From Heliomicrobium sp. (GTDB taxonomy: Bacteria; Acidobacteriota; Blastocatellia; RBC074), in assembly GCA_021155085.1 (NCBI GenBank), contig JAJNQA010000027.1:30058-94057 (forward strand): a stretch of 64,000 nt of DNA, read 5' to 3'. Numbering within the stretch: the stretch's first letter is position 1; every line of letters starts with the position of its first letter. The notes beneath the pieces are model-generated. The model saw only the letters and a list, made by a program, of their open reading frames with translations. It was not told the origin of the DNA and made no database searches. Made by a program: the position numbers and the translations under genes. This document shows positions 50,177-54,744 of the stretch, in pieces.

Positions 50177-50262
50177 GCCGGAGAAGCCCGATGGACGGGC
50201 GGCGGACTGTAAACCCGTTGTGGACGTGTGTCTGCAAGCAGGTTCGATTCCTGCCTCCGGCA
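50177..50262 (+). tRNA. tRNA-Tyr(GTA), type II (19-nt variable arm); non-canonical A8-A9
   Basis: acceptor GCCGGAG/CTCCGGC, loop CTGTAAA, T-arm GCAGG-TTCGATT-CCTGC, disc A; A31-C39 mismatch. Confidence 0.55.
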
Positions 50263-50267
50263 TTTCG

Positions 50268-50339
50268 GGGAGTATGTGGTAACTGGCAACCGGTCGGTCT
50301 CCAAAACCGATATTCCAGGTTCAAATCCTGGTACTCCTG
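50268..50339 (+). tRNA. tRNA-Trp(CCA)
   Basis: anticodon arm TCGGT-CTCCAAA-ACCGA, T-arm CCAGG-TTCAAAT-CCTGG, G1-U72; irregular D-arm. Confidence 0.6.
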
Positions 50340-50358
50340 TCAACGTTTGTAGCTATTT

Positions 50359-50446
50359 AGAGGCGTGGCGGAATTGGCAATCGCACTGGTCCGCTAAACC
50401 AGGGAGCTACTACAGTCTCGTGTGGGTTCGAGTCCCACCGCCTCTG
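50359..50446 (+). tRNA. tRNA-Ser(GCT), type II; C33 in anticodon loop
   Basis: acceptor AGAGGCG/CGCCTCT, CTGGT-CCGCTAA-ACCAG, long variable arm, T-arm GTGGG-TTCGAGT-CCCAC. Confidence 0.6.
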
Positions 50447-50465
50447 TCGAGTTATTTTTAGTTAC

Positions 50466-50550
50466 GGAGGGTTAGCCTAATTGGTAAGGCAGCAGTTTCG
50501 AAAACTGCCGTAGGATTGTACCTTTGAGGGTTCGAGTCCCTCACCCTCCT
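50466..50550 (+). tRNA. tRNA-Ser(CGA), type II; CCA encoded (50551-50553)
   Basis: acceptor GGAGGGT/ACCCTCC, GCAGT-TTCGAAA-ACTGC, T-arm GAGGG-TTCGAGT-CCCTC. Confidence 0.7.
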
Positions 50551-50600
50551 CCATTAAGTTCGGAGGTAATCAGCAACGCAATTAAGTTACAAATAGTTAT

Positions 50601-50684
50601 GGAGGGATGGCCGAATTGGCAAGGCAGTAGTTTTGAAAACTACCGGAGGTAACACTCTTCGGGGTTCGAGTCCCCGTCCCTTCG
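50601..50684 (+). tRNA. tRNA-Ser(TGA), type II
   Basis: acceptor GGAGGGA/TCCCTTC, GTAGT-TTTGAAA-ACTAC, T-arm CGGGG-TTCGAGT-CCCCG. Confidence 0.7.
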
Positions 50685-50715
50685 TCAGGTAGTAGTGTGT
50701 CTTGCAGGTACTTTG

Positions 50716-50791
50716 GCACTGGTAGCTCAGTTGGAATCAGAGCGCGGGCCTCCGAAGCCTGAGGTCGCGAGTTCGAGTCTCGCCCGGTGCA
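50716..50791 (+). tRNA. tRNA-Arg(CCG)
   Basis: acceptor GCACTGG/CCGGTGC, CGGGC-CTCCGAA-GCCTG, T-arm GCGAG-TTCGAGT-CTCGC. Confidence 0.7.
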
Positions 50792-50846
50792 TTTGACGTA
50801 AGTCGAACGTTATTTGAAAAGCCGGAAGTTATATTCAAATTACTTT

Positions 50847-50921
50847 GCGGGTGTGGCGCAAGCTGGTAGACGCGCAGCGCTAAGAACGCTGTTATTGGAG
50901 GTTCAAGTCCTCTCACCCGCA
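50847..50921 (+). tRNA. compact (type I, 75 nt) Leu-like tRNA with anticodon AAG
   Basis: acceptor GCGGGTG/CACCCGC, Leu-type D-arm GCG-CAAGCTGGTAGA-CGC, CAGCG-CTAAGAA-CGCTG, 5-nt variable loop, T-arm GGAGG-TTCAAGT-CCTCT, disc A. Confidence 0.5.
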
Positions 50922-50931
50922 TTTGGCGTTT

Positions 50932-51006
50932 GCAGGCATGGCGCAAATTGGCAGACGCGGCAGTCTCAAAAACTGCATTGTGAAGGTTCGAGTCCTTCTG
51001 CCTGCA
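50932..51006 (+). tRNA. compact (type I, 75 nt) Leu-like tRNA, anticodon CAA
   Basis: acceptor GCAGGCA/TGCCTGC, D-arm GCG-CAAATTGGCAGA-CGC, GCAGT-CTCAAAA-ACTGC, variable ATTGT, T-arm GAAGG-TTCGAGT-CCTTC, disc A. Confidence 0.55.
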
Positions 51007-51022
51007 TTATTGAAAGTTTTTT

Positions 51023-51098
51023 GTGGGTGTGGCGCAATTCAGGTAGACGCACCGGTCTCAGAAGCCGGTTGTTGGAGGTTCAAGTCCTCTCACCCACA
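51023..51098 (+). tRNA. compact (type I, 76 nt) Leu-like tRNA, anticodon CAG
   Basis: acceptor GTGGGTG/CACCCAC, D-arm GCG-CAATTCAGGTAGA-CGC, CCGGT-CTCAGAA-GCCGG, variable TTGTT, disc A. Confidence 0.55.
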
Positions 51099-51108
51099 TC
51101 AGATTTTC

Positions 51109-51181
51109 GTCGGCGTAGCTCAATTGGGAGAGCGCGAGTTTGCCAGGCTCGAGGTCGGGAGTTCAAACCTCCTCGCCGACT
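51109..51181 (+). tRNA. tRNA-Gly(GCC); CCA encoded (51182-51184)
   Basis: acceptor GTCGGCG/CGCCGAC, CGAGT-TTGCCAG-GCTCG, T-arm GGGAG-TTCAAAC-CTCCT, disc T. Confidence 0.7.
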
Positions 51182-51193
51182 CCATATTCTTTT

Positions 51194-51267
51194 GCACGCT
51201 TGGCCGAGTGGATTACAGGCGCAGGGCCGCAGCCCCTGTCAGGGCGGTTCGATTCCGTCAGCGTGCT
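51194..51267 (+). tRNA. Cys-like tRNA (anticodon GCA) with Ser-like D-arm, C33 and G37
   Basis: acceptor GCACGCT/AGCGTGC, disc T, CAGGG-CCGCAGC-CCCTG, T-arm GGCGG-TTCGATT-CCGTC. Confidence 0.45.
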
Positions 51268-51278
51268 TCATTTGATCT

Positions 51279-51354
51279 GCCGAAGTGGCGCAAACAGGCA
51301 GACGCGTGGAGCTTAAACCTCCGTCATTTGAGGGTTCGAGTCCCTCCTTCGGCA
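51279..51354 (+). tRNA. compact (type I, 76 nt) Leu-like tRNA, anticodon TAA
   Basis: acceptor GCCGAAG/CTTCGGC, D-arm GCG-CAAACAGGCAGA-CGC, TGGAG-CTTAAAC-CTCCG, short variable loop, T-arm GAGGG-TTCGAGT-CCCTC, disc A. Confidence 0.55.
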
Positions 51355-51365
51355 TTGTCAGTTTT

Positions 51366-51435
51366 TGCGGGTGGGCAAGTGCTCAGTTAGGTCTCATAAG
51401 CCTCGACTCGCTGGGAGCGTTACCCAGACCCGCAA
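51366..51435 (+). pseudogene. degenerate tRNA-like (CAT anticodon loop CTCATAA; non-canonical T-loop AGCGTTA)
   Basis: acceptor TGCGGGT/ACCCGCA pairs; D/T arms irregular. Confidence 0.3.
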
Positions 51436-51445
51436 TCAAAGTATG

Positions 51446-51521
51446 GGGCGCTGGGCAAGTCCGGTGAAGCCGTCGGTCTTTCAAGCTGAAGATCGTGGAT
51501 TCAAATCCCACACGACGCCCT
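51446..51521 (+). pseudogene. degenerate tRNA-like (TTC anticodon loop; T-stem A53-C61 mismatch and 2-nt insertion before 3' acceptor)
   Basis: GGGCGCTGGGCAAGT 5' end paralogous to 51366 copy; TCGGT-CTTTCAA-GCTGA. Confidence 0.3.
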
Positions 51522-51569
51522 ACTGTGTTTAGTTACATGATGTTACTCGGCAAGTAACTCGAAGTTACT

Positions 51570-51642
51570 GAGTCCGTGGCCTAATTGGCAAGGCAACAGC
51601 CTTTTAAGCTGTAAGATGTGGGTTCGATTCCCACCGGACTCA
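51570..51642 (+). tRNA. tRNA-Lys(TTT)
   Basis: acceptor GAGTCCG/CGGACTC, ACAGC-CTTTTAA-GCTGT, T-arm GTGGG-TTCGATT-CCCAC. Confidence 0.75.
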
Positions 51643-51660
51643 TTCGGATTTTTGAAGTTT

Positions 51661-51752
51661 GCTCCCGTAGCTTAAATGGAGAAAGCGGCGCGAAAATGAC
51701 GTGTCAGCATCGAGGGTCGCTGGAAATCCGGGTTCAAATCCCGGCTGGAGTC
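51661..51752 (+). tRNA. 92-nt tRNA-like gene with about 23-nt extra arm and non-canonical anticodon loop (AAAATGA); paralog of 51774 gene
   Basis: acceptor GCTCCCG/CTGGAGT (one C-U mismatch), D-arm GCTT-AAATGGAGA-AAGC, T-arm CCGGG-TTCAAAT-CCCGG. Confidence 0.35.
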
Positions 51753-51773
51753 TTTGTTTTTGGCTGCTGATTG

Positions 51774-51863
51774 GCTCCTGTAGCTCAACAGGCAGAGCGG
51801 CACGCTTATAACGTGTAAGCACCAGATCGGTGCGTGATCCGGGTTCGAATCCCGGCGGGAGCA
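51774..51863 (+). tRNA. 90-nt Ile-like tRNA, anticodon TAT, with about 22-nt stem-loop variable arm
   Basis: acceptor GCTCCTG/CGGGAGC, D-arm GCTC-AACAGGCA-GAGC, GCACG-CTTATAA-CGTGT, extra arm GCACC-agatc-GGTGC, T-arm CCGGG-TTCGAAT-CCCGG. Confidence 0.45.
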
Positions 51864-51874
51864 TCAGGATTTCT

Positions 51875-51949
51875 GGCGGGTGTAGCTCAGGCAGGCAGAG
51901 CGTCTGGCTGTGAACCAGAAAGCCGCCGGTTCAAATCCGGTCACTCGCC
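51875..51949 (+). tRNA. tRNA-His(GTG) with genome-encoded G-1
   Basis: G-1 + GCGGGTG/CACTCGC, disc C pairs G-1; TCTGG-CTGTGAA-CCAGA; T-arm GCCGG-TTCAAAT-CCGGT. Confidence 0.75.
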
Positions 51950-51967
51950 CTGATTTTTGAAGGTCTT

Positions 51968-52039
51968 TGGGATGTCGTCTAACTGGCAGGACGGTAGTCT
52001 TTGAAGCTATCTGTCGAGGTTCGAATCCTCGCATCCCGG
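51968..52039 (+). tRNA. tRNA-Gln(TTG), U1
   Basis: acceptor TGGGATG/CATCCCG, GTAGT-CTTTGAA-GCTAT, T-arm CGAGG-TTCGAAT-CCTCG. Confidence 0.65.
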
Positions 52040-52043
52040 TTTT

Positions 52044-52116
52044 GCACCTGAAGCTCAGTTGGCAGAGCACGCGGTTGATAACCGCGCGGTCGAAGGTTCG
52101 AGTCCTTCCGGGTGCA
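52044..52116 (+). tRNA. tRNA-Ile(GAT)
   Basis: acceptor GCACCTG/CGGGTGC, CGCGG-TTGATAA-CCGCG, T-arm GAAGG-TTCGAGT-CCTTC. Confidence 0.75.
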
Positions 52117-52126
52117 TCGAATTTGT

Positions 52127-52200
52127 GGGGCGTTGGTGTAGATGGTGAACACGCTCGGCTTTCAATCGAGAGATGGCCGGTTCGAGTCCGGTACGCCCTA
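52127..52200 (+). tRNA. tRNA-Glu(TTC)
   Basis: acceptor GGGGCGT/ACGCCCT, CTCGG-CTTTCAA-TCGAG, T-arm GCCGG-TTCGAGT-CCGGT. Confidence 0.7.
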
Positions 52201-52212
52201 CTCAAGTTTTAT

Positions 52213-52286
52213 GGGATCGTGGGCCAGTTGGAGTGGCTGCAGCCCTGTCAAGGCTGAGATCACGGGTTCGAGTCCCGTCGGTCCCG
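52213..52286 (+). tRNA. tRNA-Asp(GTC)
   Basis: acceptor GGGATCG/CGGTCCC, CAGCC-CTGTCAA-GGCTG, T-arm ACGGG-TTCGAGT-CCCGT. Confidence 0.75.
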
Positions 52287-52302
52287 TTTAGGATTTGAAA
52301 AT

Positions 52303-52375
52303 GGATCGGTAACTCAATGGTCAGAGTGCCTGCCTCTTAAGCAGGAAGTTGTGGGTTCAAGTCCCACCCGATCCA
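52303..52375 (+). tRNA. tRNA-Lys(CTT); CCA encoded (52376-52378)
   Basis: acceptor GGATCGG/CCGATCC, CCTGC-CTCTTAA-GCAGG, T-arm GTGGG-TTCAAGT-CCCAC. Confidence 0.75.
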
Positions 52376-52387
52376 CCAAAAAGTTTT

Positions 52388-52460
52388 TACAGGGTAGCTC
52401 AGTTGGCAGAGCGCCGGTCTGTTAAACCGGTCCGCGCGGGTTCGAGTCCCGCCCCTGTAG
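52388..52460 (+). tRNA. tRNA-Asn(GTT)
   Basis: acceptor TACAGGG/CCCTGTA, CCGGT-CTGTTAA-ACCGG, T-arm GCGGG-TTCGAGT-CCCGC. Confidence 0.75.
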
Positions 52461-52465
52461 CTTTT

Positions 52466-52542
52466 CAGAGTGTAGTTGCGGTTTGCGCAGAGCGCACGGC
52501 CCGGGCCCGTGAGGTCGCTCACTTCGAATCCTGCCACTCTGA
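52466..52542 (+). pseudogene. degenerate tRNA-like (acceptor CAGAGTG/CACTCTG pairs; anticodon hairpin CACGG-CCCGGGC-CCGTG; T-stem does not pair)
   Basis: TTCGAAT T-loop present but flanks unpaired. Confidence 0.3.
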
Positions 52543-52617
52543 TTTTAGCGGCGAATGCTGATGGAACTACATCTTGGAAAATGAACGTTTCATCAAATTT
52601 TTGTCGCCGCTTTTTTC

Positions 52618-52690
52618 GTGAGCGAAGCGCTAATGGCAGCGTGCTGGTCTTCCAAACCGGAGGTAGCGGGTTCGATCCCCGCCGCTCACT
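52618..52690 (+). tRNA. tRNA-Gly(TCC)
   Basis: acceptor GTGAGCG/CGCTCAC, CTGGT-CTTCCAA-ACCGG, T-arm GCGGG-TTCGATC-CCCGC; preceded by 8-bp-stem hairpin + T6 (52551-52616). Confidence 0.75.
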
Positions 52691-52695
52691 TTTTT

Positions 52696-52767
52696 GCTGG
52701 TGTAGCTCAACGGATGAGCCGCCGTCTCGTAAGCGGCAGGATATGGGTTCGAATCCCATCGCCAGCT
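52696..52767 (+). tRNA. tRNA-Thr(CGT)
   Basis: acceptor GCTGGTG/CGCCAGC, GCCGT-CTCGTAA-GCGGC, T-arm ATGGG-TTCGAAT-CCCAT. Confidence 0.7.
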
Positions 52768-52772
52768 TTGAT

Positions 52773-52844
52773 TGGGAGATCGTCTAATTGGCAGGATGGC
52801 AGATTCTGACTCTGTTGATTGTGGTTCGAATCCACATCTCCCAG
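52773..52844 (+). tRNA. tRNA-Gln(CTG), U1
   Basis: acceptor TGGGAGA/TCTCCCA, GCAGA-TTCTGAC-TCTGT, T-arm TGTGG-TTCGAAT-CCACA. Confidence 0.7.
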
Positions 52845-52850
52845 TTTTTT

Positions 52851-52923
52851 AGGAACGTAGCTCAGTGGCTAGAGCATTGGTCTTACAAACCAGAGGCCGT
52901 GGGTTCGAGTCCCACCGTTCCTA
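52851..52923 (+). tRNA. tRNA-Val(TAC)
   Basis: acceptor AGGAACG/CGTTCCT, TTGGT-CTTACAA-ACCAG, T-arm GTGGG-TTCGAGT-CCCAC; followed by 15-bp x2 tandem TTGCCCAATGCTTAT (52926-52955). Confidence 0.75.
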
Positions 52924-52965
52924 TTTTGCCCAATGCTTATTTGCCCAATGCTTATTTGAAAGCCT

Positions 52966-53038
52966 GGGATCGTAGCCAAACTGGAAAGGCGCCAGTCTTG
53001 CAAACTGGAAATTGTGGGTTCGAGCCCCACCGGTTCCA
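52966..53038 (+). tRNA. tRNA-Ala(TGC) with G3-U70 identity pair
   Basis: acceptor GGGATCG/CGGTTCC, CCAGT-CTTGCAA-ACTGG, T-arm GTGGG-TTCGAGC-CCCAC. Confidence 0.75.
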
Positions 53039-53048
53039 TTCTGATTTT

Positions 53049-53120
53049 CTGGGTGTGGGGCAGTGGCTGCCCACTTGCCTTGGGAGCAAGCCGACGCAGG
53101 TTCGAGTCCTGCCACCCAGA
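53049..53120 (+). tRNA. tRNA-Pro(TGG)
   Basis: acceptor CTGGGTG/CACCCAG, CTTGC-CTTGGGA-GCAAG, T-arm GCAGG-TTCGAGT-CCTGC. Confidence 0.75.
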
Positions 53121-53126
53121 CTTTAT

Positions 53127-53203
53127 GTTCGTGTAGCTCAGTGGAAATTTAGAGCGCTGGTCTACGAAACCAGAGGCCGAAGGTTCGAATCCTTCCACGA
53201 ACA
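53127..53203 (+). tRNA. tRNA-Arg(ACG)
   Basis: acceptor GTTCGTG/CACGAAC, CTGGT-CTACGAA-ACCAG, T-arm GAAGG-TTCGAAT-CCTTC. Confidence 0.75.
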
Positions 53204-53211
53204 TCAAATTT

Positions 53212-53283
53212 GGTTGGTTAGCACAACTGGCAGTGCGCTCGGCTGAAGCCCGAACGGACGGGGTTCGAGTCCTCGACCAACCA
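53212..53283 (+). tRNA. tRNA-Phe(GAA)
   Basis: acceptor GGTTGGT/ACCAACC, CTCGG-CTGAAGC-CCGAA, T-arm CGGGG-TTCGAGT-CCTCG; followed by 7-bp-stem hairpin 53290-53318. Confidence 0.7.
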
Positions 53284-53324
53284 TCAAATCAAATCTCCGA
53301 TTTCAAATTGGAGATTCGAGATGG

Positions 53325-53399
53325 GGTGATGTAGCTCAGTGGAATCAGAGCGACTGCCTCCTAAGCAGTAGGCCGTGAGTTCAAATCTCACCATCGCCA
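53325..53399 (+). tRNA. tRNA-Arg(CCT)
   Basis: acceptor GGTGATG/CATCGCC, ACTGC-CTCCTAA-GCAGT, T-arm GTGAG-TTCAAAT-CTCAC. Confidence 0.75.
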
Positions 53400-53407
53400 C
53401 TTCAAAT

Positions 53408-53481
53408 GTCCGCATAGCTCAGTTGGAGGCAGCACCCGCTCGGTACGCGGGAGGACGCCGGTTCGATTCCGGCTGCGGGCT
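53408..53481 (+). tRNA. tRNA-Thr(GGT); apparent C33 and 3-bp D-stem
   Basis: acceptor GTCCGCA/TGCGGGC, CCCGC-TCGGTAC-GCGGG, T-arm GCCGG-TTCGATT-CCGGC. Confidence 0.55.
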
Positions 53482-53497
53482 TAACCTGATAATCTAC

Positions 53498-53573
53498 GGG
53501 TCTGTCGTCTAATTGGAATCAAGGCGTCCGGCTTCTAACCGGGATGATGCAGGTTCGAGTCCTGCCAGGCCCT
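53498..53573 (+). tRNA. tRNA-Arg(TCT)
   Basis: acceptor GGGTCTG/CAGGCCC, TCCGG-CTTCTAA-CCGGG, T-arm GCAGG-TTCGAGT-CCTGC. Confidence 0.7.
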
Positions 53574-53597
53574 TCTTGAGCAATCAACGGAGTTGTT

Positions 53598-54155
53598 ATG
53601 GTAATCAGCAGAAAAGTCTTGCTACTCAACGCTTCTTACGAACCGCTCAGTGTGGTGACTGCGCCGAAGGCGTTGACGCTAGTTTTCAGGCACGTGGCCG
53701 AAGTGCTGGAGGCGGATCAAGGACACGTGCTGCGTTCGCCACGGTTTGTTTTCCAGGTGCCGTCGGTGATCCGGTTGACGCAATACATCAATATCCGCTC
53801 GCGGCAAAACCGCGTGGCCAATCGCCATCGGATTCTGGCGCGTGACCATTACCGCTGCCAGTATTGCGGCAAGCGTGGAAGTGCCTTTGAACTGACGCTT
53901 GATCACATCCTACCCAGATCACGTGGCGGTCGAACAGTGGCCGAAAACCTGGTTGCGTCTTGCCAGGCTTGTAACAACCGCAAAGGTGACCGGACGCCGG
54001 AAGAAGCCCGGATGCCTTTGCTGACTAATCCGGCGGCGTTGTTTTATGGATTGGAGCGGGTGGAGTTGCGGCAGGCGGCCGCGAATCGTCCGGAATGGAG
54101 AAAATATCTTTTCCTCGAACACGCGGAAGAGGAACTGGCGGTAATCTCCGCCTGA
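53598..54155 (+). CDS. HNH endonuclease
   Basis: ACGGAG SD; HNH motif DHYRCQYCGKRGSAFELTLDHILPRSRGG...NLVASCQACNNRKGDRT. Confidence 0.8.
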   Translation: MVISRKVLLLNASYEPLSVVTAPKALTLVFRHVAEVLEADQGHVLRSPRFVFQVPSVIRLTQYINIRSRQNRVANRHRILARDHYRCQYCGKRGSAFELTLDHILPRSRGGRTVAENLVASCQACNNRKGDRTPEEARMPLLTNPAALFYGLERVELRQAAANRPEWRKYLFLEHAEEELAVISA

Positions 54156-54315
54156 GGTTCCCAGTCGTCGCTGGCGCTGATTCGAGCAATGGAGTCTGTG
54201 TCGTTCTGCTGCCCGAATCGGCGCTGGCGGGCGAATTTTTTGAACTACATTTTTTGTCTGTCTTGACAGTTTCGCGAACCATCTGCTACTTTCCCGGCTT
54301 CGTTATTAGACATAC

Positions 54316-54390
<75 letters not shown>

Positions 54391-54744
54391 TTTCTCCCGA
54401 TTTCCTGGGAGTTTCTCTTTGGCACATGCCAAAACGTTCAACGTCAGCTCCCGAAGAGTTGCCGGAATTATGCAAAGACGATTTATCTTTAATCGAACTA
54501 AGTAGCTGCGATGATCCAAGCGCCACTCCGGCGCGTTCGTCGCAGCAGCTTTGCATTGGCAACCGCTGGCGTAGGACCTTACCTTAAAGCGCCTATCTTA
54601 CTTGGGCTTTTTGCTTTTGGGATTGTCCGCACCGGTTAATTTCAGATTTGAAATCCGGGGCCTGGGTTTCGTTGTTATGCCCGGGGTCCTGGTTTCAGGC
54701 TACAGACATCCCATCTGTCAGACCGTAAGTTTAGGTAAAAAGCA

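What the first reader, a model, noticed from the sequence alone, without database searches (positions are those of the whole stretch)
51661..51863. Paralogous pair of 90-92-nt tRNAs with a ~22-nt extra arm; one carries anticodon TAT
Genes at 51661 and 51774 share acceptor and T-arm sequences (GCTCCyG...CCGGGTTCrAATCCCGG). Both have an Ile/Met-like 4-bp D-stem but a 22-23-nt insertion between the anticodon arm and T-arm that can form its own stem (GCACC/GGTGC). The second has loop CTTATAA (anticodon UAU, reading AUA), an anticodon rare in bacteria, on a type-II-like body. The first has a non-canonical loop AAAATGA.
Basis: seen in the sequence. Interest (0 to 1): 0.6.

Follow-up and report, generated by a model that had tools for sequence, protein, structure and literature searches.

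The report
Five-armed AUA-reading tRNA and its degenerate twin
Two neighbouring tRNA genes in a mobile cluster of 34 tRNA genes carry an extra hairpin; the one with anticodon UAU belongs to a widespread class of five-armed isoleucine tRNAs in phages and soil bacteria for which I found no published description, and the other is a conserved copy that can no longer read a codon.

Summary
Genes at 51661-51752 and 51774-51863 are tandem paralogues inside a 34-gene tRNA array (50177-54387) with an embedded HNH endonuclease, on the chromosome of an uncultured Acidobacteriota bacterium.

tRNA2 is a strong tRNA (Rfam 63 bits). It has a normal 7/5 acceptor/T branch, a 4-bp D-stem, the loop CUUAUAA and A73. 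It also has a 4-5 bp hairpin placed 5' of a class-I-like 5-nt variable loop.

tRNA2 is not a one-off:
- One pattern found 89 such genes in viral contigs and more than 80 in bacterial genomes, almost all in tRNA arrays.
- They form 51 sequence clusters.
- In the window's subfamily the extra stem covaries (4 of 5 pairs).
- Among class-I tRNAs of these arrays, the arm is nearly specific to anticodon UAU.
- In carrier phages, ATA codons evolve as isoleucine codons, so recoding is unlikely.

The role of the arm is unknown. Its commonest loop, C-A-G-A-U-N-A, resembles a tRNA-Ile(GAU) anticodon loop.

tRNA1 is present in all nine related arrays examined and is much better conserved than the spacers. 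However, it never has U33, its "anticodon" varies, and it folds poorly. It is probably a non-decoding tRNA-like paralogue.

I found no paper describing this class.

The parts
50177..54387 (+). tRNA array unit: 34 tRNA genes in 4.2 kb, all on the + strand, holding the two genes of the finding
   Evidence: ARAGORN and Rfam tRNA hits. Homologous arrays with the same gene order occur in Acidobacteriota MAGs L092, L097, L100, L145, L165 and L195.
51661..51752 (+). tRNA1: 92-nt five-arm tRNA-like paralogue. It has G1.U72, a C6xU67 mismatch, discriminator C, anticodon loop AAAATGA (A33) and an imperfect extra hairpin.
   Evidence: ARAGORN Ile(aat). Rfam gives 33.8 bits with the anticodon arm skipped. 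It is present in 9 related arrays with variable purine-rich loops. Mean pairwise identity is 0.83 against 0.35-0.71 for spacers.
51693..51699 (+). tRNA1 anticodon-loop equivalent, AAAATGA, without U33
   Evidence: Sequence. Orthologues read AAAAAAA, GGAATGA, GGAAAAA, GAAATGA or a 6-nt AAAAAA.
51705..51727 (+). tRNA1 extra region, CAGCATCGAGGGTCGCTGGAAAT (imperfect stem AGCATC/GTCGCT plus a 5-nt tail)
   Evidence: The consensus fold of 7 orthologues keeps a broken stem here. One-sided changes occur, but no double compensatory change.
51774..51863 (+). tRNA2: 90-nt five-arm tRNA-Ile(UAU) with a 7-bp acceptor stem, 4-bp D-stem, 5-bp anticodon stem, extra hairpin, 5-bp T-stem and A73
   Evidence: ARAGORN. 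Rfam tRNA 63 bits. The MFE fold is a five-arm cloverleaf, z = -3.5. All five helices covary in 22 relatives.
51805..51811 (+). tRNA2 anticodon loop CTTATAA; anticodon TAT at 51807-51809
51817..51838 (+). tRNA2 extra region: linker AA, stem GCACC (51819-51823), loop AGATC (51824-51828), stem GGTGC (51829-51833), tail GTGAT (51834-51838)
   Evidence: In alignment A1, 4 of the 5 stem pairs show changes on both sides. The loop G-A and the tail G-A-U are invariant.
53598..54155 (+). HNH endonuclease gene embedded in the array
   Evidence: Pfam HNH_5/HNH, E = 3e-16. Homologues at 51-85% identity lie inside the arrays of about 30 Acidobacteriota loci.
54394..54411 (+). Terminator-like hairpin plus T-run, 7 nt after the last tRNA of the array (possible end of the array transcript)
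   Evidence: Consensus scan only. This is weak evidence.

Best explanation
The two genes are a tandem duplicate inside a horizontally mobile 'tRNA array unit' (34 tRNA genes plus an HNH endonuclease). The array is lodged in the chromosome of an uncultured Acidobacteriota bacterium.

tRNA2 is a working elongator tRNA that reads the rare codon AUA as isoleucine through an encoded UAU anticodon, so lysidine synthetase (TilS) is not needed. It belongs to a large, structurally distinct class. The class has a class-I tRNA-Ile-like core: a 7/5 acceptor/T branch, a 4-bp D-stem, G18G19, A15 with U48, G46 and A73. A 3-9 bp hairpin is inserted between the anticodon stem and an otherwise normal 5-nt variable loop.

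Shown here: the gene, its fold, its family, covariation of the extra stem within the window's subfamily, near-specificity of the arm to UAU tRNAs, and the isoleucine-like evolution of ATA codons in carrier phages.

Inferred: that tRNA2 is expressed, is charged by IleRS and is used on the ribosome. The role of the arm is also inferred. My favoured reading is that it compensates for problems a mobile UAU tRNA faces in a foreign host. These are poor acceptance of U34 by ordinary IleRS and misreading of AUG. The arm could act either as an added synthetase contact or by stiffening the anticodon/D-stem hinge.

tRNA1 is a paralogue that has lost a decodable anticodon loop. It is still kept in all related arrays. 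It is most likely a non-decoding tRNA-like RNA, or a slowly decaying copy.
For: Existence and fold:
- ARAGORN calls both genes; Rfam gives 63 bits for tRNA2; its MFE fold has z = -3.5.

Array context:
- 34 tRNAs in 4.2 kb with an HNH ORF.
- The same HNH and gene order occur in other Acidobacteriota loci. L097 shares the flanking S15 peptidase at 84% identity.
- The literature describes tRNA array units with an embedded HNH gene, a tRNA-Ile(TAT) and a short-arm tRNA-Leu (PMC6582537, PMC5966550, PMC4758250).

Family:
Most of the genome loci are bacterial and most of those are Acidobacteriota.
- These give 126 unique sequences in 51 clusters.
- A cultured example is annotated plainly as tRNA-Ile in Acinetobacter phage vB_AbaS_qsb1.

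Structure:
- In 22 relatives, 97.6% of cells are paired and 19 of 26 pairs show double changes. The extra helix has 4 of 5 pairs covarying. 0 of 500 shuffles reach the observed values, and slid controls fall to about 40% paired.

Specificity to UAU:
- Only 10 of 554 other class-I tRNAs in the same viral loci are 84 nt or longer.

Meaning of AUA:
- In carrier phage loci, ATA aligns to Ile codons 1080 times, Val 421, Leu 274 and Met 87. This matches the ATT/ATC profile and the control loci. ATA makes up 25% of Ile codons there.

Identity elements:
- A73 is present in all but 3 of 126 unique sequences, with A37 and A38.
- The standard-length phage tRNA(UAU) genes have A73 in 114 of 115 and similar variable loops.

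tRNA1:
- It is present in 9 arrays. Identity is 0.83 against 0.35-0.71 for spacers. No orthologue has U33. Positions 34-36 read AAT or AAA.
Against: - There are no expression, aminoacylation or modification data for this gene or any member of the class.
- The codon test shows what AUA means in carrier phages, not which amino acid this tRNA carries. The host tRNA-Ile2 could do the decoding.
- The host hardly uses ATA (13 of 11,821 codons), so the gene may be idle cargo here.
- The search pattern required TAGCT, CTTATAA and the T-loop. Conservation of those elements is therefore built in.
- Many hits are close relatives (43 unique sequences in one cluster, mostly Pyrinomonadaceae), so counts overstate independence.
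- E. coli IleRS charges a UAU variant 360-fold worse than the lysidine form (PMC3575796). Isoleucylation in an ordinary host cannot be taken for granted.
- For tRNA1, seven to nine close orthologues give no double compensatory change. Some anticodon-stem changes are uncompensated. 'Conserved' rests on a comparison with short, poorly alignable spacers.
Confidence: 0.7

Rival explanations
1. Recoding tRNA. Synthetases that ignore the anticodon (LeuRS or SerRS) would use the long extra arm together with A73 to charge tRNA2. AUA would then be read as Leu or Ser, as with nematode nev-tRNA-Ile(UAU) or acidobacterial allo-tRNAs.
For: - nev-tRNA-Ile(UAU) carries a V-arm and A73 and is leucylated in vitro (PMC3333845, PMC4300185).
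- allo-tRNAs with non-Ser anticodons insert Ser in E. coli, and UAU is their commonest anticodon (PMC5389517).
- tRNA2 has A73 and an extra arm.
- The window is acidobacterial.
Against: - The core is class I, not Leu- or Ser-like: a 4-bp Watson-Crick D-stem, an 8-nt D-loop and 5 unpaired nt 3' of the arm.
- The discriminator is A in nearly all members, whereas the cited work reports G73 (or U73) for Ser-type tRNAs (PMC5389517, PMC3333845).
- In carrier phages, ATA sites exchange mainly with Ile codons (52% of non-identical alignments). Leu is 13%, as expected for a true Ile codon and as seen in controls.
- The array's own Leu tRNAs lack a long arm. The arm is therefore not a Leu mark in this system.
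Confidence: 0.06
2. Dead cargo. Both genes are pseudogenes, and the hairpin is a scar (a small insertion or duplication) with no function that persists because arrays are redundant with the host's own tRNA set.
For: - Arrays are reported as redundant with chromosomal tRNAs (PMC12803027, PMC5966550).
- The host uses ATA in 0.11% of codons.
- tRNA1 is clearly degenerate.
- The array also holds a broken tRNA-Glu-like sequence at 51452-51511.
Against: - tRNA2 is among the best-conserved genes of the array across 7 genomes (0.93 identity; anticodon arm 0.97).
- The five-arm design is kept in 51 clusters from unrelated phages and bacteria. The stem changes by compensation and the loop motifs are conserved.
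- Carrier phages use ATA for 25% of their Ile codons.
Confidence: 0.06
3. Removable element. The hairpin is a mini-intron or processing signal that is excised, leaving a standard 73-nt tRNA-Ile(UAU).
For: - Removing the linker and hairpin leaves a perfect class-I tRNA with a 5-nt variable loop.
- Archaeal tRNA-Ile(UAU) genes found by the same pattern carry short introns.
Against: - The insertion lies in the variable region and forms a plain hairpin without a bulge-helix-bulge motif.
- ARAGORN run with introns allowed does not call one.
- As far as I know, bacteria and their phages have no enzyme that splices such short inserts; their tRNA introns are group I, over 200 nt (own knowledge).
- Hairpin loop sequences are conserved as if they were read in the mature RNA.
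Confidence: 0.04
4. tRNA1 is a selected, non-decoding tRNA-like RNA rather than a decaying copy. It could be, for example, a decoy or substrate for a tRNA-binding enzyme or toxin, or a processing or structural element of the array transcript.
For: - It is present at the same position in all 9 related arrays.
- Identity is 0.83 overall and 0.94 for the T arm plus 3' acceptor strand, like bona fide neighbours Gln (0.84) and His (0.87) and well above the spacers.
- The odd features are themselves conserved: G1.U72, the Y6xU67 mismatch and C73.
Against: - The fold is no better than random for the single sequence.
- There are uncompensated changes in the anticodon stem, and the loop varies in length and sequence.
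- No double compensatory change was seen. The orthologues are few and close.
Confidence: 0.4

Closest known systems
Bacterial tRNA-Ile(UAU) ('Ile3'), e.g. Mycoplasma mobile, Bifidobacterium, Neorickettsia (PMC3575796, PMC8450103)
   Same: An encoded UAU anticodon in the loop CUUAUAA, with A73. It reads AUA without lysidine.
   Different: I found no mention of an extra arm on these tRNAs in the papers read. The M. mobile tRNA works with a co-adapted IleRS (Arg865) and ribosome. The present class is carried by mobile arrays and phages, and has a fifth arm.
tRNA array units with embedded HNH endonuclease (Acidithiobacillus, Mycobacterium, mycobacteriophages; PMC4758250, PMC5966550, PMC6582537, PMC12803027)
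   Same: At least 20 densely packed tRNA genes and an HNH gene inside the array. [quoted passage not shown] The Mycobacterium mucogenicum array tRNA-Ile(TAT) is expressed.
   Different: Those papers do not mention an extra arm on the Ile(TAT) gene. The present array is acidobacterial and carries a second, degenerate copy.
Nematode nev-tRNA-Ile(UAU) (PMC3333845, PMC4300185)
   Same: A UAU anticodon, a long extra arm and A73.
   Different: It is eukaryotic. It derives from tRNA-Leu, with a Leu-like D-arm and V-arm, and is leucylated. The present class has a class-I core, and its codon context is isoleucine.
allo-tRNA(UAU) of Acidobacteria (PMC5389517)
   Same: The same phylum, a long extra arm, UAU as the commonest anticodon, and mention of five-stem junctions and degenerate copies.
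   Different: allo-tRNAs are defined by an 8/4 or 9/3 acceptor/T branch, a long D-stem with a tetraloop and a 6-bp anticodon stem. They are linked to toxin-antitoxin loci. tRNA2 is 7/5 with a canonical D-arm and lies in a full tRNA array.
Class II tRNAs (Leu, Ser, bacterial Tyr)
   Same: A stem-loop between the anticodon and T arms.
   Different: Class II tRNAs have a 3-bp D-stem and few unpaired nucleotides 3' of the arm (own knowledge). Here there is a 4-bp D-stem and a full 5-nt tail. In this array the Leu tRNAs themselves are class I.
Engineered 'pseudo-anticodon' V-arms (PMC7590224)
   Same: A hairpin in the variable region whose loop copies an anticodon loop, in order to recruit a synthetase's anticodon-binding domain.
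   Different: It is synthetic, was built on allo-tRNA and needed a synthetase with an extra fused domain. No natural case is known.

Membership tests
tRNA (Rfam RF00005) | Cloverleaf scoring above the gathering score of 29 bits | tested here: met
   tRNA2 scores 63 bits. tRNA1 scores 33.8 bits, only in a short search and with the anticodon arm skipped.
tRNA (decoding-competent) | A 7-nt anticodon loop with U33 and a purine at position 37 | tested here: met
   Met for tRNA2 (CUUAUAA). Not met for tRNA1 (AAAAUGA) or any of its orthologues.
tRNA-Ile(UAU) AUA decoder | Anticodon UAU with A37, A38 and discriminator A73 | tested here: met
   A73 is present in all but 3 of 126 unique family members.
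tRNA-Ile(UAU) AUA decoder | Charged with isoleucine by IleRS | not testable with these tools
   The only evidence is indirect. ATA sites in carrier phages evolve as Ile sites.
tRNA-Ile(UAU) AUA decoder | Replaces tRNA-Ile2(CAU)/TilS in the genome | not testable with these tools
   Only 64 kb is available. There is no CAU tRNA in the array. The genome is a metagenomic contig.
[quoted passage not shown] 2016 definition) | At least 20 tRNA genes at a density of at least 2 per kb | tested here: met
   34 genes lie in 4.2 kb.
tRNA array unit (Mycobacterium-type) | An HNH endonuclease gene embedded in the array | tested here: met
   ORF 53598-54155 matches Pfam HNH and is conserved in related arrays.
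Class II tRNA | An extra arm of at least 10 nt between the anticodon and T arms | tested here: met
   The extra region is 22 nt in tRNA2 and 23 nt in tRNA1.
Class II tRNA | A class-II core: a 3-bp D-stem, few unpaired nt 3' of the arm, and a Leu, Ser or Tyr anticodon | tested here: not met
   The D-stem has four Watson-Crick pairs that are invariant or covarying. There is a 5-nt tail with invariant G-A-U. The anticodon is UAU.
allo-tRNA | An 8/4 or 9/3 acceptor/T branch | tested here: not met
   Seven acceptor pairs and five T pairs are supported by covariation.
allo-tRNA | A long D-stem with a tetraloop and a 6-bp anticodon stem | tested here: not met
   The D-stem is 4 bp with an 8-nt loop containing GG. 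The anticodon stem is 5 bp.
nev-tRNA | [quoted passage not shown] | tested here: not met
   The D-arm is class-I type, and the array's Leu tRNAs have no V-arm. Leucylation was not testable.
Intron-containing tRNA | An insert placed as an intron (bulge-helix-bulge or group I) by tRNA software | tested here: not met
   ARAGORN run with -i gives no intron call, and the insert is a plain hairpin in the variable region.

The most novel reading that the evidence does not exclude
The extra arm is a natural 'pseudo-anticodon arm'. In about 20 of 51 clusters, including the window's gene and dozens of Acidobacteriota (mostly Pyrinomonadaceae/Blastocatellia) genomes, it is a 3-9 bp stem closing a 7-nt loop C-A-G-A-U-N-A (sometimes C-U-G-A-U-A-A). 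That is the anticodon loop of the major tRNA-Ile(GAU), with position 33 changed.

Ordinary IleRS rejects U34 (a 360-fold loss in E. coli). A mobile UAU tRNA could therefore carry one arm for the ribosome (UAU) and a second arm that offers IleRS the G-A-U it recognises. That would separate identity from decoding within one tRNA.

The tandem geometry would also allow the two arms to swap places. The arrangement is D-stem, N26, arm 1, arm 2, a 5-nt variable loop, then the T-stem.
Probability: 0.15. Interest if true: 0.9.

Novelty: new variant of a known kind. Interest (0 to 1): 0.62.

Why it matters
Reading AUA is a known weak point of bacterial decoding. It normally needs the essential enzyme TilS, or else a UAU tRNA that ordinary IleRS charges poorly and that can misread AUG.

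A fifth arm that recurs, covaries and is almost specific to UAU tRNAs carried by phages and mobile arrays suggests that these elements have a structural solution that works across hosts. It makes two questions directly testable with simple hairpin-deletion and loop-swap mutants:
- How does a foreign UAU tRNA get charged?
- How does it stay accurate?

It also matters for three other areas:
- Annotation: such genes are filed as plain tRNA-Ile.
- The idea that tRNA arrays act as anti-defence or translational back-up sets.
- tRNA engineering, where hairpins in the variable region are being designed deliberately.

Tried and rejected
- BLAST of the region, of tRNA2 and of two family representatives against cultured phages gave only short tRNA-part matches. 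The exception was Acinetobacter phage vB_AbaS_qsb1. Plasmids gave nothing.
- The single metagenome scan, aimed at tRNA1, returned only 2 loci, one identical in sequence to L145. tRNA1's evolution therefore rests on 9 close orthologues.
- The allo-tRNA supplement is not held. Direct comparison with allo-tRNA(UAU) was impossible.
- The Mycobacterium paper's probe table did not show whether its Ile(TAT) has the arm.
- Global identity of the hairpin-less core to other tRNAs (65-73%) does not discriminate its origin.
- No standard-length phage tRNA(UAU) is closer than 84% to a five-arm core. No recent gain or loss event was caught.
- The promoter scan found nothing.
- A strict 'GAU mimic' reading is weakened by two results. 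Some type-1 loops read GAC. A second large hairpin type has the loop C-U-N-R-C-A-A.
- I considered kissing between the extra loop and the palindromic UUAUAA of the anticodon loop. I dropped it because the needed bases are not conserved.
Full report
**Observation**

ARAGORN finds 34 tRNA genes on the + strand between 50177 and 54387. They include tRNA-Ile(aat) at 51661-51752 (92 nt) and tRNA-Ile(tat) at 51774-51863 (90 nt), exactly the stated coordinates.
- shared GCTCCYG and CCGGGTTCRAATCCCGG;
- 4-bp D-stems;
- loops AAAATGA and CTTATAA;
- 23 and 22 nt between the anticodon and T arms.

Rfam's tRNA model scores tRNA2 at 63 bits and places 19 nt as an insertion in the variable region. Folded alone, tRNA2 gives a five-arm cloverleaf as its minimum-energy and centroid structure (-39.5 kcal/mol, z = -3.5).

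tRNA1 is marginal:
- Rfam gives 33.8 bits only in a short search, with the anticodon arm skipped.
- It is absent from the 5.5-kb search.
- ARAGORN loses it at a slightly stricter threshold.
- Its fold is no better than shuffles.

ARAGORN run with introns allowed does not reinterpret either insertion.

**Context**

The window is bacterial chromosome, not phage. It encodes DUF1800/DUF1501 pairs, PD40 Ser/Thr kinases and peptidases. Directly downstream of the array lie ThrRS and the PheRS alpha and beta subunits; the source contig also shows IF3 after ThrRS. An HNH endonuclease ORF (53598-54155) sits inside the array. An identical HNH protein is encoded on metagenomic contigs, including a 111-kb contig of JGI sample 3300014202 with the same ThrRS neighbour.

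Homologous arrays occur in Acidobacteriota MAGs. They share the same HNH (51-85% identity) and, in six loci, the same gene order Lys(ttt)-tRNA1-tRNA2-His(gtg)-Gln-Ile(gat). L097 (Blastocatellia) also shares the flanking S15 peptidase at 84% identity.

This is a 'tRNA array unit' as defined by Tran et al. (PMC4758250). Such units are described in Mycobacterium with an embedded HNH gene, a tRNA-Ile(TAT) that is expressed, and a tRNA-Leu with a short variable loop (PMC5966550, PMC6582537, PMC12803027). The four Leu tRNAs of the present array are likewise only 77-79 nt.

**Anatomy of tRNA2**

From 5' to 3':
- acceptor strand GCUCCUG, which pairs with CGGGAGC near the 3' end;
- U8 A9;
- D-stem GCUC/GAGC with loop AACAGGCA;
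- G26;
- anticodon stem GCACG/CGUGU with loop CUUAUAA;
- linker AA;
- extra stem GCACC/GGUGC with loop AGAUC;
- tail GUGAU;
- T arm CCGGG-UUCGAAU-CCCGG;
- discriminator A73.

The tail has the form of a class-I variable loop (N-N-G46-N-U48) and matches A15 in the D-loop. Standard-length phage tRNA(UAU) genes have variable loops such as AGGTC, AGGTT, CGAT and AGAT. The body is therefore a class-I tRNA with a hairpin added 5' of its variable loop. It is not a class-II body.

**A large family**

I scanned for TAGCT, 18-24 nt, CTTATAA, 24-36 nt, GGTTCRANTCC.
- In IMG/VR viral contigs this returned 89 loci, a complete count.

ARAGORN calls almost all bacterial and viral hits as tRNA-Ile(tat) of 84-98 nt. 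The archaeal hits are intron-bearing tRNA-Ile(UAU) genes and are unrelated. After filtering for intact stems there are 126 unique sequences in 51 clusters at about 80% identity.

Carriers include:
- dozens of Pyrinomonadaceae/Blastocatellia MAGs;
- Rhodospirillaceae;
- Pseudoxanthomonas mexicana DSM 17121;
- Acidithiobacillus sp. M4-SHS-6 (a 38-gene array);
- Planctomycetia;
- Lachnospiraceae;
- many phage contigs.

One cultured phage, Acinetobacter phage vB_AbaS_qsb1, has such a gene annotated simply as tRNA-Ile. Its loop is CTTATAC and its extra region is AACGACAGATAATCGGCTGAT. The five-arm form is therefore a sizeable minority.

**Structure is under selection**

I aligned the window gene with 21 relatives that share its 22-nt extra region (A1). 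On this alignment:
- 97.6% of cells form standard pairs, against 74% in shuffles and 36-44% when partners are slid.
- 19 of 26 pairs show changes on both sides.
- No shuffle out of 500 reaches any observed measure.
- The extra helix has 4 of 5 pairs with double changes. Its innermost pair is often open, giving a 4-bp stem with a 7-nt loop.
- The loop G-A and the tail G-A-U are invariant.

Across all clusters the stem takes at least 15 different complementary sequences around the same loop.

**Hairpin types**

- Type 1 (about 20 clusters, including the window and the Pyrinomonadaceae genes): loop C-A-G-A-U-N-A, sometimes C-U-G-A-U-A-A or C-G-G-A-C-U-A.
- Type 2 (about 18 clusters, mostly Clostridia and gut-type phage contigs): GCC[C-U-N-R-C-A-A]GGY.
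- The rest carry GNRA-like or other small hairpins.

**Specificity to UAU**

In the loci holding five-arm UAU tRNAs, other non-Leu/Ser/Tyr tRNAs are 84 nt or longer in 10 of 554 cases (viral loci) and 32 of 845 cases (genome loci). Several of the latter are archaeal intron cases or tRNA1 orthologues.

**What AUA means in carriers**

I took ORFs of at least 80 aa from the 89 viral loci. I aligned homologues from different contigs (50-98% identity) and tabulated aligned codons.
- ATA pairs with a different codon 2,093 times: Ile 1,080, Val 421, Leu 274, Met 87.
- This is the profile of ATT and ATC in the same data, and of ATA in the control loci that carry standard-length tRNA(UAU). It is unlike TTA or CTA, which pair with Leu 1,885 and 1,616 times.
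- ATA makes up 25% of Ile codons in these phages.

AUA is therefore an isoleucine codon where this tRNA lives. That argues against Leu or Ser recoding of the kind seen with nev-tRNAs or allo-tRNAs. The pairs are not independent, and the test does not identify the amino acid on this particular tRNA.

In the host window, ATA is almost unused: 13 of 11,821 codons. The gene is therefore cargo of the array rather than a host necessity.

**tRNA1**

It lies between Lys(ttt) and tRNA2 in all seven aligned arrays and in two further metagenomic contigs, although ARAGORN calls it in only some.

Conserved features:
- G1.U72;
- a Y6xU67 mismatch;
- discriminator C;
- D-stem GCUU/AAGC;
- the whole T arm plus the 3' acceptor strand.

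The anticodon loop is purine-rich and variable: AAAAUGA, AAAAAAA, GGAAUGA, GGAAAAA, GAAAUGA and a 6-nt AAAAAA. It never has U33, and positions 34-36 read AAU or AAA. Two orthologues have uncompensated anticodon-stem changes.

Mean pairwise identity is 0.83. The T arm plus acceptor strand is 0.94 and the extra region 0.71. For comparison, the four spacers are 0.35-0.71, Gln is 0.84, His 0.87 and tRNA2 0.93.

tRNA1 is thus more conserved than neutral sequence, but it cannot be a fixed decoder. With so few and such close orthologues, I cannot separate a selected tRNA-like RNA from a slowly decaying copy.

**How the arm may work (inference)**

A UAU tRNA has two documented problems:
- E. coli IleRS charges a UAU variant 360-fold worse than the lysidine form. 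M. mobile needed an IleRS change (Arg865).
- The M. mobile tRNA cannot tell AUA from AUG on E. coli ribosomes (PMC3575796).

A tRNA that travels between hosts cannot rely on co-adapted enzymes. The arm sits at the anticodon-stem/D-stem hinge. It could add a synthetase contact, block an unwanted modification or synthetase, or stiffen the hinge and so tune decoding.

The type-1 loop is strikingly like the tRNA-Ile(GAU) anticodon loop. An engineered 'pseudo-anticodon' V-arm has been shown to help recruit a synthetase (PMC7590224). However, some type-1 loops read GAC, type 2 reads N-R-C, and the tip of a short variable-region hairpin is far from where IleRS binds the anticodon. I give this reading about 0.15.

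**Comparison and novelty**

The gene works like the known bacterial tRNA-Ile(UAU). Its context is a known kind of mobile tRNA array. It fails the defining features of three other groups:
- class II tRNAs (D-stem, tail, anticodon);
- allo-tRNAs (8/4 or 9/3 branch, long D-stem, 6-bp anticodon stem);
- nev-tRNAs (Leu-derived body).

Seven full-text searches and the papers read contain no description of an extra arm on bacterial or phage tRNA-Ile(UAU) (searches; papers read). The allo-tRNA(UAU) sequences, which might overlap, could not be inspected.

I rate the finding a new variant of a known kind. The window's pair is one member of that class, plus a conserved degenerate twin.

**Limits**

- No expression or charging data exist.
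- The family was collected with a pattern that fixes the anticodon loop, U8-U12 and the T-loop.
- Many members are closely related.
- Whole genomes were not available to check tilS, tRNA-Ile2 or IleRS.

Noticed in passing
window 50846-50922, 50931-51007, 51022-51100, 51278-51355: All four tRNA-Leu genes of the array (aag, caa, cag, taa) are only 77-79 nt, with a 4-5 nt variable loop. That is class I, whereas nearly all bacterial tRNA-Leu are class II. The discriminator reads A if ARAGORN's 8th pair is discounted. The same holds in related arrays: 75 short against 10 long Leu genes in the genome loci.
   Followed up: partly
window 51452-51511 (about 51443-51520): A tRNA-like sequence with loop CTTTCAA (anticodon TTC, Glu). 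Rfam matches it only partially (34.6 bits, model positions 8-63) and ARAGORN does not call it. It sits where related arrays have tRNA-Glu(ttc). It appears to be a copy with a broken acceptor stem, and a second Glu(ttc) lies at 52127-52201.
   Followed up: partly
window 50177-54387: The 34-gene array has no tRNA with a CAT anticodon (no Met, fMet or Ile2), although it covers the other 19 amino acids. Related Pyrinomonadaceae arrays do contain a Met(cat).
   Followed up: no
window 53598-54155; L097, L100, L145, L147, L112 and about 25 Pyrinomonadaceae loci: The embedded HNH endonuclease is conserved (51-85% identity) inside tRNA arrays across many Acidobacteriota MAGs. Weaker relatives (28-36%) lie in three viral tRNA-array contigs (L002, L023, L067). 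This points to one array-plus-HNH lineage.
   Followed up: partly
L109 112-2808 (Planctomycetia MAG); also L188, L199: In these arrays ARAGORN draws several other tRNAs (calls of Phe gaa, Gly tcc, Val aac, Pro ggg, Gln ctg and two of undetermined anticodon) as 91-96 nt with an extra hairpin. Here the fifth arm is not confined to Ile(UAU). Some of these calls have weak stems.
   Followed up: no
L197 2608-2703 (- strand): A 96-nt tRNA(cat) lies about 270 nt from the five-arm Ile(tat). Its extra hairpin has a perfect anticodon-like loop CTTGTAA (TGT, Thr) on the stem CGGT/ACCG. It is either a two-anticodon-arm tRNA or a Met/Thr gene fusion.
   Followed up: no
window 51805-51811 and all family members: The loop core TTATAA of a UAU tRNA is a 6-nt palindrome, so two such anticodon loops could pair with each other. 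Any relevance to the extra arm is unknown.
   Followed up: no
L043, L057, L088 (viral contigs): ARAGORN calls three identical five-arm genes as 'tRNA-Stop(tta)' because it shifts the anticodon frame on ...GAGTTCTTATAAAGC.... Automated pipelines can misname this class as suppressor tRNAs.
   Followed up: no
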